A stretch of 64,000 bases of DNA from the human T2T-CHM13v2.0 reference genome, Homo sapiens. Both the position numbers and the translations under genes were made by a program. The stretch lies in assembly GCF_009914755.1 (NCBI RefSeq), contig NC_060928.1; one strand, written 5' to 3'. This document shows positions 16,196 through 21,584 of the stretch, one piece after another (the first letter of the stretch is position 1; each line of letters opens with the position of its first letter). The notes under the pieces were generated by a model. It ran no database searches, had not been told where the DNA came from, and saw nothing but the letters and a program-made list of their open reading frames with translations.

Positions 16196-16705
16196 TAGCA
16201 ACTTCGTGTTTAAAACTTTATTCTCTATATATTTACACCAAAGCATGCAATTTAATTATATAAATGTTATTAACATTATTGTATATAAAATAGAAAACTA
16301 GAAAAATCCAGATGTTCATCATTAAGAGAATACTCAAATATATCTGTTCAATAGTATTCAGAGCAACCATTCAGAAAGAGTGAGGTATATCTAGATGTCT
16401 TGATATGCAAGGAAAACCAAGCTATTTTAATGTTGGAAAAAAATTGAGGCTCAAAATAGAGACTGGTTGTAATATGATATAAAAATTTGTCTATGATTTT
16501 AAGCTGTAGTACATGTATTTTTTGTCTGCATAAATACATGAAAGATGCTAACTGTAATCACCTTTGGAGAGAAGAACCAGGAGTCTGAGGGGGAGAGAAA
16601 ACTTTCACCTATGGTTTTAAATTGCTCTGTTTGGTTTTCATTCTTTTAAAAATGTATATGTTGAGCATACACACACACACACCACACACACATATGTTTT
16701 ATTTT

Positions 16706-16848
16706 ATACTTTTTTAGAGAGACAAGGTCTTGCTGTGTCACCCAGGCTGGAGTTCAGTGGTGGAAGCATAGCTCATGCAGCCTCAGACTCCTGGGCTCTA
16801 TTTATCCTCCTCCCTCAGACTCCCAAGTAGCTGGGATTGCAGGCCCAC
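16706..16848 (-). mobile_element. AluJ right arm (half of a split Alu)
   Basis: T-rich tail, AGACAAGGTCTTGCT, GCAGCCTCAGACTCCTGGGCTC; ends abruptly at AGGCCCAC. Confidence 0.9.
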
Positions 16849-18032
16849 AAGGTACAGCTCAGGCCATTGCTTCAAAAGGTGCAAGCCCCAAGGCTTGGTG
16901 GCTTCCATGTGGTCTTGGGCCTGCTGGTGGGCAGAAGTCAAGAGTTGAGGTTTGGGAATCTCTGTATAGATTTCAGAGGATGTTTGGGAATGCCTGTATG
17001 TTCAAGCAGAAGTCTGCTGCAGGGGCAGAGCCCTCATGGAGAACCTCTGCTAGGGCAGTGCAGAAGGGAATGCGGGGTCAGTGTCCCCACACAGAGTCCC
17101 CACTGGGGCACTGTCTAGTGGAGCTATGAGAAGAGGGCCACTGTCCTCCAGACCTCAGAACCAACAGCTTGCACCATGCACCTGGAAAAGCTGCAGACAC
17201 TCAATACCAGTCCATGAAAGCAGCCAGAAGTGGCTGTAAAGCCACAGCGGTGGAGCTGCCCAAGGCTGTGGGAGCCTACCTTTTGCATCAGCGTGACCTG
17301 GATGTGAGACATGGAGTCAAAGGAGATCATTTTGGAACTTTAAGGTTTAATGACTGCCCTATTGGATTTCAGACTTGCATGGGGCTTATAACCCCTTTGT
17401 TTTGGCCAATTTCTCCCATTTGGAATGGGTGTATTTACCCAATGCCTGTACCCGCATTCTATCTAGGAGGTAAAAAACTTGCTTTTGGTTTTACAGGCTC
17501 ATAGGTGGAAGAAACTTGCCTTGTCTCAGATGACACTTTGGACTTGAATTTTTGAATTAGTGCTTGAATGAGTGAGTTAAGACTTTGGGTGACTGTTGAA
17601 AGAGTATGATTGTGTTTTGAAATGTGAGGACATAAGATTTGGGAGGGGCCAGAGGCAGAATGATATGGTTTGGTTGTGTCCCCACCCAAATCTCATCTTG
17701 AACTGTGGTTCCCATAATCCTCACATGTCCTGGGAGAGCCCAGGTGAGAAGTAATTTAACTATAGGGGTGGTTAACCTCAAGCTGATCTTGTGATAGTGA
17801 GTGAGTTCTCACGAGATCTAATGGTTTTATAAGTCTCTTTTTCCCCTTTTGATACTTCTCCTTGCTGCCGCCATGTGAAGAAGGATATGTTTGCTTCCCC
17901 TTCTGGCATGATTGTAAGTTTCCTGAGGCCACCCCAGCCATGTGGAACTGTGAGTCAATTAAACCCGTTTCCTTTATAAATTACCCAGTCTTGGGTATGT
18001 CTTTATTAGAAGCATGAGAACAGACTAATACG
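16849..18032 (+). mobile_element. THE1 (THE1C/D-like) 3' half of internal region plus 3' LTR (17661-18032)
   Basis: AAGGTACAGCTCAGGCCATTGCTTCA internal motif, polypurine tract GGGAGGGGCCAGAGGCAGAA, LTR TGATATGGTTTGG...ACTAATACG. Confidence 0.92.
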
Positions 18033-18929
18033 GTGTTCAAAAAATGAACAATTGTATAAACACAGCATTTCCTCCATAAGTTAAGTGTTTTTAGAAGGAG
18101 CTAAAACTCCTGGAATCCCCAGGGTGCCTCATTTTCAGAGGATCTTGTTTAAAATAGACCATCCATATTAGAGATGTAAATTTTGTGACAGTTATGATTG
18201 GCCACATCTTCCACTCTCTGCAGGTGGTACTTCTTTTTCTTTCCTTATTTACAATTGCATCAAGAAATGAGAATATTGCTTGTTTAAGTGAGAGGATGCA
18301 CACAGGTGGGCCAGGGCCCATGGCCGTCAATTTAAGGGCACACTTTCATTTTCAATGTAATTAACTGTCTAATTGAGCATCCAAATTTAGCAGTGAATTT
18401 GCATGTGCAATTAATTATGATTTAAAAGCACTCTGCATTAATGGTTTCTTTCCCATTATCTACAAATGTAATTACTGAAGGATGGATTGAGTTTGAAAAT
18501 CATTTGGGAAAATGTTTTTCTGCATCCCTGGAGCCCAATGCTATAAGAGGTAACAGTGAAATGAGAACATCACACCCAGAATTATAATGCTGAAAAGTGA
18601 GTTATTCTGGAGGGAGGGGCTGTAGGAGAGAGCTAGATTTGCTGATTTCAATATATAGTAATCTTTTTTTCTTGTTTACTGGAATTAATTTAAATTATAG
18701 TCACTATATGATTTCACTCAGAACAGATATACACCCTAGACTTACAGAAGGAGATTTTAGAGATAAAACTCACATTTTAAAAAAGAGTTCTAAAAGGAGA
18801 CTGTATTCTTAGTAATTTTCCATAAATTGTAAAATTAATATCTAGTTTAGTCTAAGAGCATTTGCATGCTTTTCTTGATTAAAGAAAAGATCTTAAAAGA
18901 GAAGATAAAGATATGTCCTTAAAATCTGA

Positions 18930-19260
18930 GGCCAGGTGTGGTGGGCCAAGCCTGTAATCACAGCACTTTGATAGGCTGAGGTGGGCAGATTGTTTGAGCT
19001 CAGGAGTTTGAGACCAGCCTGGGCACAATGGCGAAACCCCTTATCTAACCCCATTTCTTTACAAAAAAATATAAAAAATAGCTGGGTGTGGTAGCACATG
19101 CCTGTGGTCCCAGCTACTTGGGAAGCTGAGGAGAGAGGATTGCTTGAACCCAGGAGGTCGAGGCTGTAGTGAACCATGATCAAACCACTGTACTCCAGCC
19201 TCCAGCCTGGGGAACAGAGTGAGACTCTGACTCAAACAAACAAACAAACAAACAAACAAA
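18930..19260 (+). mobile_element. AluJ with (CAAA)n tail
   Basis: GGATTGCTTGAACCCAGGAGGTCGAGGCTG J-type motif. Confidence 0.9.
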
Positions 19261-19810
19261 CAGATATAAGTAGTAATCAGTAATAATTAACAAAGATTAG
19301 ACTAAAAACTTAGTCACTGGAGGGAAAATGAAAATTTTGAATAGGCAGACTGTGTCCTTTCCACTGGCTGAATAATTGAAAAACTGTATTATTATTTTCT
19401 GAGGAAAAAACATTAAGCATTTTGCCAACCAGAGATTTCTATAAATATAATGCTCATAGTTTTGCTGTAGAAGAAGGAAGTTAACTGTCACTGACTCTAA
19501 GCTCTTCTACCCCTGTCCACAAGGAGTACAAAGATACCAAACAATGGCAGGACATCAGCTTGAGTTTATCTCCATAGGCCTGGTGAGTAGAAAGCCTGAC
19601 TGAGAGGCATTTCAGAAAGGAAGTGAATAAAGCTTAGGAAGATGGTGTGAAAGAAAAATGATCACTTAATTATTATTTTATTAATGTAGTAATTGTTTAA
19701 AATAAATGGTTTTAAATAAAATACATTTATTTTAAAATGTTATTTAAAATTATGTATTAAACTATGTATTTCAAAATTAAACAAAAATAAATTGTTTAAA
19801 AATAAAACAT

Positions 19811-19962
19811 GGCTTGACATAGTGGCTCATGCCTATAATCCCAGCACTTTGGCAGGCTAAGGTGAGAGGATTGCTAGGAGGTAGAGACCAGCCTGGGCAA
19901 TATAGAGAGACCCTGTCTCTACAAAAAAACTTAAAATTTAAAAATCAGCTTGGCACAGTGGC
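19811..19962 (+). mobile_element. AluJ left arm (other half of the split Alu)
   Basis: GGCTTGACATAGTGGCTCATGCC...AAATCAGCTTGGCACAGTGGC, then abrupt switch to THE1 internal sequence. Confidence 0.9.
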
Positions 19963-21109
19963 AGCCCCTTTTAACCACAACCAGAGCTGAAGCAGCTTAA
20001 ACTCAGGGTACCATGTACCCAGGGTGCATAGCAGGTAGGGTCCTAGGCCCAACCCAGGAAACCATTCTTTCCTCTTAGGCATCTGGGCCTGTGATAGGAT
20101 GGGCTGCCAGGAAGCTCCCTGACATGCCCTGGAGACATTTTCTCCATTGTCTTGGTGGTTAACATTCAGCTCCTCATTACTTATGCAAATTTCTGCAATT
20201 GGCTTGAATTTTTCCCCAGAAAATGTGATTTTCTTTTCTATTTCATTATCGGGCTGCAATTTTTTCAAACTTTTATGCTCTGCTTCCTCTTGAATGCTTT
20301 GTCACTTAGAAATTTCTTCTGCCAGATACCCTAAATTATCTTTCTCAAGTTCAAAGTTCCACAGATCTCTAGGGAAGGAGCAAATGACACCAGTCTCTTT
20401 GCTAAAGCATAGCAAGAGTCACCTTTATTCCAGTTACCAACAAGTTCCTCATTTCCATCTGAGACCACCTCAGCCTGGACTTTATTGTCCATATCACTGT
20501 CAGCATTTTGGTCAAAGCCATTCAACAAATCTCTGGGAAGTTCCAAGTTTTCCCACATCTTCCTGTTTTCTGAGCCTACCAAGTCTCTAGGAAGTTCCAA
20601 AATTTCCCACATTTTCTGGTCTTCTGCTGAGCCCTCTAAACTGTTTCAACCTCTGCCTGTCACCCAGCTCCAAAGTCACTTCCACATTTTTGGGTATCCT
20701 TAAAACAGCATCCCACTCTTGGTACCAATTTACTGTATTAGTCTGTTCTCCTGCTGCTAATGAAGACATACCCAAGACTGTGTAATTTATAAAGGAAACA
20801 GGTTTAATTGACTCACAGTTCTGCATGGCTGGAGAGGCCTCAGGAAACTTACAGTCATAGCAGAAGGGAAAGCAAATATGTCCTTTTTCACTTGGCAGCA
20901 GCAAGGAGAAGTGCCCAACAAAACGGTGGGAAGCCTTTTATAAAGCCATCAGATCTCATGAGAACTCACTCACTCTCACGAGAACCACATGAGGGTAACT
21001 GCCCCCATGATTAAATTACCTCCCATTCTGTCCCGCCAGGGACATATGAAGATTATAAGAACTACAATTCGAGATGAGATTTGGGTGGGGACACAGCCAA
21101 ACCATGTCA
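19963..21109 (-). mobile_element. THE1 5' half of internal region plus 5' LTR (20734-21109)
   Basis: Antisense THE1 internal sequence; LTR TGTATTAGTC...CAGCCAAACCATGTCA. Confidence 0.92.
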
Positions 21110-21584
21110 AAAACACAGGAAACATTTTTGTATGGGCCTTTAACTTCTAGAACATTTAATACCTTGAAGCTCTGACATAAGAAACTGGTAGTTAAATTGG
21201 GAACACTTTAATTTTTATTATCAAGATTATTACTAATAGATAAATTGCCTTATATTTATGTAGCAATGACAATATTTTAGTGTATATTTGCTTATGTCAT
21301 CATTCCTATATAGAAATATAAAATTACCCTCATGTTAGGGGTGAGAAAGTATGATTCAGAAAGGTAATGTGATTTGCCCCAGAAAGGCAATAGCAGGAAA
21401 GAGAGTATAATCTCCATTTTAAAACTCAATCTGGTGGTCTTTCATCAAATCTGTGGTAAGTAATGAAAAAATACTCTTTGTGAAATGAGTGAGCCTAAAG
21501 TCTCTAGCACTCCAAGATAAATTTTCAAATTTTATGGTTATTTTGTAAATCACATAACAAGCCATCTCAAGAGCAAAAGTAGCA

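What the first reader, a model, noticed from the sequence alone, without database searches (positions are those of the whole stretch)
16694..21114. ~3.1-kb inversion (16849-19962) revealed by a split AluJ and a split THE1
Seen: an antisense AluJ right arm is fused to a sense THE1 3' half at 16848/16849, and a sense AluJ left arm is fused to an antisense THE1 5' half at 19962/19963. Reverse-complementing 16849-19962 restores a contiguous Alu (AGGCCCAC+GCCACTGTGCC) and a contiguous THE1 internal region (CTGTACCTT+AGCCCCTTTT; recalled consensus CTGTACCTTGGCCCCTTTT). The 12-bp Alu TSD is now an inverted pair: ATGTTTTATTTT at 16694-16705 and AAAATAAAACAT at 19799-19810. The putative 5-bp THE1 TSD is only weak support (AACAC as reverse complement of 18033-18037 vs AAAAC at 21110-21114, 3/5 identical). 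Inference: the junctions are essentially blunt with no shared repeat, so this is end-joining rather than NAHR, and it post-dates the THE1 insertion. The flipped segment contains an enhancer-like block.
Basis: partly seen in the sequence, partly recalled or inferred. Interest (0 to 1): 0.8.

Follow-up and report, generated by a model that had tools for sequence, protein, structure and literature searches.

The report
Clean 3.1-kb inversion splitting two repeats
A 3,114-base stretch of human chromosome 4 between IL15 and INPP4B was cut out and re-inserted backwards with no base lost or gained, cutting one old Alu and one THE1-type retroelement in two; it is a real but ordinary kind of event whose date could not be set here.

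Summary
The two Alu pieces (19811-19962 sense, 16706-16848 antisense) end and start in neighbouring columns of an alignment with 8 of 8 other Alus. The two halves of the LTR element do the same on 6 of 6 natural genomic copies. The 12-nt Alu target-site duplication is now a perfect inverted pair, and those are its only two occurrences in the window. Neither chimeric junction has a second copy among the scored genome matches. The junctions show 0 nt of microhomology, and no inverted homology spans them. The best reading is two double-strand breaks, a flip of 16849-19962, and blunt non-homologous end joining after both repeats had inserted. A T2T-based inversion call set from 41 genomes plus added samples lists nothing here, so a polymorphism or a misassembly is unlikely. 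The "enhancer-like" claim is not shown, although a ~140-nt block has one diverged second copy on chromosome X. No primate orthologues could be reached, so the date is open. This is a new member of a known kind, of modest interest.

The parts
16694..16705 (+). Alu target-site duplication, the copy that stayed outside the inversion (ATGTTTTATTTT)
   Evidence: 12 of 12 reverse complement of 19799-19810. Unique in the window.
16706..16848 (-). 3' part of an old Alu, antisense: short A-tail and most of the right monomer
   Evidence: Starts at alignment column 207, directly after the other piece, against 8 of 8 window Alus. BLAST matches to window Alus.
16849..19962 (.). The inverted segment, 3,114 bp
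   Evidence: Bounded by J1 (16848/16849) and J2 (19962/19963).
16849..17660 (+). 3' half of the internal region of a THE1-type (MaLR) LTR element, sense
   Evidence: 81-84% identical to the 39 other scored genomic copies. Abuts the 5' half on natural copies.
17661..18032 (+). 3' LTR, 372 bp
   Evidence: 82.5% identical to rc(20734-21109).
18033..18037 (+). Target-site duplication of the LTR element (GTGTT), the copy carried inside the inversion
   Evidence: 4 of 5 match with the reverse complement of 21110-21114.
18347..18487 (.). Single-copy block rich in TAAT cores and carrying an ATTTGCAT octamer. It has one diverged second copy on contig C23.
   Evidence: 73% over 147 columns, including a 21-nt identical run. 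No test of function.
18929..19240 (+). Complete second Alu lying wholly inside the inverted segment. It says nothing about the date.
19799..19810 (+). Alu target-site duplication, the copy carried inside the inversion (AAAATAAAACAT)
19811..19962 (+). 5' part of the same old Alu, sense: left monomer, A-rich linker and the first ~15-20 nt of the right monomer
   Evidence: Ends at alignment column 206.
19963..20733 (-). 5' half of the internal region of the LTR element, antisense
20734..21109 (-). 5' LTR, 376 bp, antisense
21110..21114 (+). Target-site duplication of the LTR element (AAAAC on the + strand), the copy outside the inversion

Best explanation
After an old Alu and a 2.33-kb THE1-type LTR element had both inserted, antisense on the + strand and about 1.8 kb apart, the chromosome broke at two places. 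One break lay inside the Alu and one in the middle of the LTR element's internal region. The 3,114 bp between the breaks were turned round and both ends were re-ligated without loss, gain or use of homology, as in classical non-homologous end joining of two blunt or fully compatible double-strand breaks. The result is a balanced, intergenic inversion. All human genomes examined in print so far appear to share it, so it is most likely old and fixed.

Shown: the inversion itself, base-exact contiguity at both breaks, the absence of homology, and its timing after both insertions.

Inferred: the repair pathway, fixation, and age. The age is anywhere from the insertion of the LTR element to the present.
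For: Alu pieces meet at columns 206/207 against 8 of 8 reference Alus.

Halves of the LTR element meet with 0 bases between them in 5 of 7 natural copies, and at columns 144/145 against 6 of 6 copies.

The 12-nt duplication is a perfect inverted pair, unique in the window, with P about 4e-7. The 5-nt duplication matches 4 of 5.

Probes of 140 nt across each junction found no second copy. For each junction, 39 of 39 non-self scored matches stop at it.

Microhomology is 0 nt at both junctions. The best inverted match between the two 300-nt junction regions is the arm-to-arm likeness of the Alu, about 100 nt away from the junctions and not across them.

The two LTRs are 82.5% identical. Sister LTRs of four intact copies range from 81.5 to 86.1%, and each window LTR has the other as its best partner among 11.

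The T2T-based human inversion call set has no entry at chr4 145.09-145.11 Mb and reports no T2T misorientation.
Against: No outgroup or second human sequence was seen here, so the un-inverted state is inferred and not observed.

Of 21 non-homologous human inversions studied by Giner-Delgado et al., 18 carry small indels (passage). A junction pair with no change at all is therefore the less common outcome.

Most genomic matches to the THE1-type side of J1 begin one base early, at 16848. A 1-nt microhomology erased by a later substitution at 19963 is therefore possible.

The call-set check rests on a prefix search of two tables made on T2T v1.0 coordinates.
Confidence: 0.85

Rival explanations
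1. The inversion arose in replication by template switching (FoSTeS/MMBIR-type), not by joining of two double-strand breaks.
For: Giner-Delgado et al. propose this route for non-homologous inversions with small indels (passage). A 1-nt microhomology at J1 cannot be excluded.
Against: There is no microhomology in the present sequence, no inserted or duplicated bases, and no deletion at either junction. Such events usually leave at least one of these (established knowledge, recalled).
Confidence: 0.08
2. The arrangement is an assembly error of CHM13, or a rare or polymorphic allele carried by CHM13.
For: Only one assembly was seen here.
Against: No long, highly identical inverted repeats lie at the junctions to confuse an assembler. 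[quoted passage not shown] Its tables have no chr4 entry beginning 14509 or 14510; the only hit is on chr7.
Confidence: 0.04
3. Non-allelic homologous recombination between inverted repeats made the inversion.
For: The two LTRs are now an inverted pair (I1 and I2).
Against: The LTRs lie 800 nt or more inside or outside the junctions and are inverted only because of the event. No inverted homology crosses J1 and J2. Each junction joins unrelated families, Alu to the internal region of the LTR element.
Confidence: 0.01
4. There was no inversion. Two truncated Alus and two truncated LTR elements inserted independently and lie side by side by chance.
For: None beyond the high density of such repeats.
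Against: Base-exact complementarity of the truncation points in two unrelated families, plus a 12 of 12 inverted duplication pair. The LTR pair is as alike as sister LTRs.
Confidence: 0.01
5. Site-specific cutting of the V(D)J (RAG) type at cryptic signals made an inversional join.
For: A CACAGTG heptamer sits at 19954-19960, 2 nt from J2.
Against: The break is not at the heptamer border. Neither junction is a heptamer-to-heptamer signal joint, and the motif is ordinary Alu sequence. The rules of RAG cutting are recalled, not tested.
Confidence: 0.01

Closest known systems
Non-homologous (NH) human inversions, as in Giner-Delgado et al. 2019 (PMC6748972; passages and a supplement search seen)
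   Same: Small balanced inversions with breakpoints in unrelated sequence and no inverted repeats. They are ascribed to end joining or replication-based repair.
   Different: Those are polymorphic, and 18 of 21 carry small indels in the derived allele. This one has no indel at either junction and is absent from the T2T human call set, so it is probably fixed.
Inversions mediated by inverted repeats (NAHR), e.g. PMC3961182 (search listing and abstract only)
   Same: A balanced inversion of a few kb.
   Different: There is no repeat at the breakpoints here, so recurrence or toggling is not expected.
Twin-priming inversions inside L1 insertions (bioRxiv 10.1101/2021.12.20.472354, abstract only: about 85% of inversions under 2 kbp)
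   Same: A small inversion next to retroelement sequence.
   Different: Here the inverted DNA is mostly single-copy host sequence. One copy of each target-site duplication lies inside it, which twin priming does not give.
Human-chimpanzee microinversions (PMC8755829; search listing and abstract only)
   Same: Fixed small inversions found by sequence comparison.
   Different: Those are dated by an outgroup. This one is inferred from one genome by split repeats and is undated.

Membership tests
Simple balanced inversion by non-homologous end joining | One continuous segment lies in reverse orientation between two junctions | tested here: met
   Both split repeats give the same segment, 16849-19962.
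Simple balanced inversion by non-homologous end joining | No homology, or at most a few nt, at the junctions | tested here: met
   0 nt in the present sequence. At most 1 nt if 19963 has changed since.
Simple balanced inversion by non-homologous end joining | No loss, gain or duplication at the junctions (clean subtype) | tested here: met
   Columns 206/207 and 144/145, with no gap in any reference row.
Simple balanced inversion by non-homologous end joining | Un-inverted state present in an outgroup or another haplotype | not testable with these tools
   No primate genomes are held. Supplements of ape papers were unreadable or irrelevant.
NAHR inversion | Inverted repeats spanning both breakpoints | tested here: not met
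Known polymorphic human inversion | Listed in a population call set | tested here: not met
   No chr4 entry with start or end beginning 14509 or 14510 in Tables S1 and S2 of PMC10150506. In PMC6748972, 12 of 18 supplementary files were searched without a hit, using prefixes derived from recalled gene coordinates.
Alu (old, J-like) | Dimer with an A-rich linker, an A-tail and a flanking target-site duplication | tested here: met
   Alignment with 8 window Alus. 12-nt duplication.
Alu (old, J-like) | Diagnostic positions of subfamily J | not tested
   No repeat library is on hand. The pieces are only 68-80% identical to other window Alus, which fits an old copy. The name itself is recalled.
THE1 / MaLR LTR element | About 2.3 kb made of LTR, internal region and LTR, with LTRs of about 350-375 bp and a 5-bp duplication (features recalled) | tested here: met
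   376 + 771 + 812 + 372 = 2,331 bp. Duplication matches 4 of 5. There were 7,289 first-look candidates in the genome, and the 39 other scored copies are 81-84% identical.
THE1 / MaLR LTR element | Both LTRs are of one element and subfamily | tested here: met
   82.5% against 81.5-86.1% for sister pairs of 4 intact copies. Each is the other's best partner among 11, though for the 3' LTR only by 0.1 point.

The most novel reading that the evidence does not exclude
The inversion is specific to humans or to African apes. It turned round and moved by up to 3 kb a two-copy conserved non-coding block (18347-18487, with a paralogue on chromosome X) in the gene desert between IL15 and INPP4B. That would make it a lineage-specific change of regulatory layout that can be tested directly.
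Probability: 0.08. Interest if true: 0.55.

Novelty: new member of a known kind. Interest (0 to 1): 0.3.

Why it matters
The case shows that a small, perfectly balanced inversion can be proved from a single genome. Two split repeats and an inverted pair of target-site duplications replace the outgroup. It also adds a rare fully clean example, with no indel and no microhomology, to the non-homologous class, which bears on how often two breaks are rejoined exactly. The segment is intergenic and enhancers work in either orientation, so no effect on function is expected unless the single-copy block proves to be a regulatory element with a direction-sensitive partner. Once primate orthologues are compared, it could also serve as a rare genomic change for primate phylogeny.

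Tried and rejected

Semi-global pairwise alignment of the Alu pieces to 9 window Alus gave apparent overlaps of 0 to -12. This is an artefact of the repeated GTGG motif at the break. The multiple alignment settles it.

Dating and polymorphism from print:
- The supplement of the ape T2T paper is a PDF without text.
- No supplement is held for the primate SV preprint, and its main text does not name IL15, INPP4B or 4q31.
- An id recalled for the 2018 great-ape paper is not held.
- The macaque paper's tables gave only unrelated numbers, and 2 of its 14 files were not searched.
- Giner-Delgado supplements: the only hit for the five search terms was an unrelated P-value. 'chr4' was not found at all, and 6 of 18 files were not searched.

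A search for single-genome detection of old inversions by split repeats found nothing to the point among the 12 papers listed of 117. This does not show that the idea is not in print.

Gene conversion between the now inverted LTRs was considered because identity is uneven, 74-79% in the first half and 91% in the last quarter. Sister pairs of intact copies vary as much by quarter, so it is not claimed.

RAG-type cutting, NAHR, twin priming and chance juxtaposition were rejected (see Rival explanations and Closest known systems).
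Full report
ANATOMY. Reading 16400-21400 gives the following order on the + strand:
- a (CA)n run;
- a 12-nt word at 16694-16705;
- an antisense Alu 3' part at 16706-16848;
- junction J1 at 16848/16849;
- the sense 3' half of the internal region of an LTR element at 16849-17660;
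- its 3' LTR at 17661-18032;
- GTGTT at 18033-18037;
- about 0.9 kb of single-copy DNA;
- a complete Alu at 18929-19240;
- about 0.55 kb of single-copy, AT-rich DNA;
- the reverse complement of the 12-nt word at 19799-19810;
- a sense Alu 5' part at 19811-19962;
- junction J2 at 19962/19963;
- the antisense 5' half of the internal region at 19963-20733;
- the antisense 5' LTR at 20734-21109;
- AAAAC at 21110-21114.

The repeat finder sees the two LTRs as an inverted pair (I1 and I2). BLAST within the window finds them 82% identical and finds no other copy of the element in the 64 kb.

THE ALU IS ONE ELEMENT CUT IN TWO. I aligned the two pieces as separate rows with 8 other Alus of the window. 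The 5' piece ends at column 206 and the 3' piece starts at column 207. None of the 8 references has a gap at that point. An earlier pairwise attempt gave apparent overlaps of 0 to -12 in 9 references. This is an alignment artefact of a repeated GTGG motif and is superseded. The break lies after the A-rich linker, some 15-20 nt inside the right monomer, not at the border of the arms. The pieces are 68-80% identical to other window Alus, as expected of an old copy. The label AluJ is recalled and was not tested against a library.

THE LTR ELEMENT IS ONE ELEMENT CUT IN TWO. The window's own genome is held. A 452-nt probe from the 3' half found 7,289 first-look candidates. 40 of them were scored, and the 39 copies other than the window's own are 81-84% identical. 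Seven natural copies with flanks (L002-L008) served as rulers, and the halves were never joined.

BLAST places the 5' half on L006 at 424-1499 and the 3' half at 1501-2696. Semi-global alignment of the last 100 nt of one half and the first 100 nt of the other leaves 0 reference bases between them in 5 of 7 copies. L004 gives -1 next to a 1-nt difference, and L002 lacks the region. In a multiple alignment with the 6 copies that have the region, the halves end and start at columns 144 and 145, and all 6 references run through without a gap.

The pieces add up to 376 + 771 + 812 + 372 = 2,331 bp. This fits what I recall of THE1 (about 2.3 kb, LTRs of about 350 bp, 5-bp duplication). The family name rests on recall.

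TARGET-SITE DUPLICATIONS. The 12-nt words at 16694-16705 and 19799-19810 are exact reverse complements. Each is the only occurrence on its strand in the window, and the composition-based chance of such a match is about 4e-7. In the sense of the LTR element the flanks read GTTTT and GTGTT, a 4 of 5 match. For both repeats one duplication copy lies inside 16849-19962 and one outside, as an inversion predicts.

JUNCTIONS. Probes of 140 nt centred on J1 and J2 each found the window itself plus 39 other scored matches.
- For J1 all 39 begin at query 70-75, so they cover only the LTR-element side.
- For J2 all 39 cover query 1-72 or 72-139.
- No match crosses either junction (40 of 2,838 and 40 of 394 candidates were scored, so this is a lower bound).

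Neither chimeric junction is therefore part of a dispersed or duplicated unit. Microhomology is 0 nt at both junctions. Most matches at J1 begin at query 70, which is base 16848, because natural copies have C where this element's 5' half now ends in T. A 1-nt microhomology erased by a later substitution at 19963 is therefore possible.

The best inverted match between the two 300-nt junction regions scores 26, against 9.8 +/- 1.1 for 200 shuffles. It is the likeness of the two Alu monomers, about 100 nt from the junctions, and those monomers were in direct orientation before the event. NAHR is excluded.

SISTER LTRS AND AN UPPER AGE BOUND. The LTRs are 82.5% identical over 372 aligned positions, K2P 0.204. 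Sister LTRs of four intact reference copies (L004, L005, L006, L008) are 81.5-86.1% identical. L003, whose 5' LTR is cut by the end of the locus, gives 73.5%. Among 11 other LTRs each window LTR has its proposed sister as best partner: 82.5 against at most 79.9 for the 5' LTR, and 82.5 against 82.4 for the 3' LTR. The refuting condition 'different subfamilies' is thus not met.

With a recalled neutral rate of about 2.2e-9 per site per year, K = 0.204 puts the insertion at some 45 million years ago. This is an inference, and it is only an upper bound for the inversion.

Identity is uneven along the pair, 74-79% in the first half and 91% in the last quarter. Intact pairs vary as much, so I do not claim gene conversion.

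POLYMORPHISM OR ARTEFACT? Porubsky et al. 2023 (PMC10150506) called inversions against T2T-CHM13 (v1.0) in 41 genomes plus further samples, using assemblies (PAV), Strand-seq and optical maps. The passages I read say that no region is inverted against T2T in all 41 samples, and that methods other than Strand-seq are sensitive below 10 kbp. A search of its three supplementary files for numbers beginning 14509 or 14510 found only a chr7 entry. Together with the lack of any long inverted repeat at the junctions, this makes a misassembly or a CHM13-private allele unlikely, though I saw no reads.

I could not date the event. No primate genome is held, and the supplements of the ape and primate papers were unreadable, absent or irrelevant.

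MECHANISM. The simplest account has three steps.
1. Two double-strand breaks occurred, 3,114 bp apart.
2. The fragment was reversed.
3. Both ends were joined directly, without resection, as in classical end joining.

Template switching in replication is the main rival. It usually leaves microhomology or small insertions and deletions, and none is seen. Staggered breaks with fill-in would leave inverted duplications, and none is seen either. A CACAGTG heptamer at 19954-19960 lies 2 nt from J2, but the cut is not at its border and no signal joint exists, so RAG-type cutting is rejected on recalled rules.

In Giner-Delgado et al. 2019, 21 of 45 common human inversions are non-homologous and 18 of those carry small indels (passage). 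A junction pair with no change at all is the minority outcome.

THE 'ENHANCER-LIKE BLOCK'. The segments 18040-18925 and 19250-19800 are single-copy in the genome, with one exception. The stretch 18347-18487 has a second copy at C23:12458236-12458380, 73% identical over 147 columns. It includes a 21-nt identical run and a shared ATTTGCAT-containing stretch (only 2 candidates genome-wide). This pattern fits a duplicated conserved non-coding element or an old exapted repeat, but nothing here tests conservation or activity. The hub's table lists no RefSeq functional element.

VERDICT. The event is a clean, non-homologous, balanced 3.1-kb inversion, probably fixed in humans and of unknown age. The kind is well known. 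I found this instance in none of the sources I could read, which is weak evidence that it is undescribed. The interest is modest. It would rise if the event proved lineage-specific and the flipped block regulatory.

Noticed in passing
18347-18487; L009 (G000 C23:12458236-12458380): A ~140-nt block inside the inverted segment has exactly one other copy in the genome, on contig C23. It is 73% identical, with a 21-nt identical run, several TAAT cores and an ATTTGCAT octamer. It may be a duplicated conserved non-coding element.
   Followed up: partly
17661-18032 and 20734-21109: Identity between the two LTRs is uneven, 74-79% in the first half and 91% in the last quarter. Sister LTRs of intact copies vary as much, so no gene conversion is claimed.
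   Followed up: partly
19986-19991: A 6-nt insertion lies 23 nt from J2. Among the 7 aligned 5'-half sequences it is present only in this copy; the 6 references lack it. A link with the break repair cannot be judged.
   Followed up: no
20526-20626: Two tandem 47-nt units, 83% alike and 54 nt apart, lie in the 5' half of the internal region (D9). This half is about 70 nt longer than the matching stretch of L006. It may be a local duplication.
   Followed up: no
19954-19960: A CACAGTG heptamer lies 2 nt from J2. It is ordinary Alu sequence and is not at a RAG-type cut position.
   Followed up: yes
15640-15955 and 16058-16196: A full antisense Alu is followed 240 nt on by a partial antisense Alu (left-monomer-like) that is 74-92% alike (D6 and D8).
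   Followed up: no
16659-16693 and 15017-15062: Two (CA)n microsatellites. The first abuts the outer Alu target-site duplication (D7).
   Followed up: no
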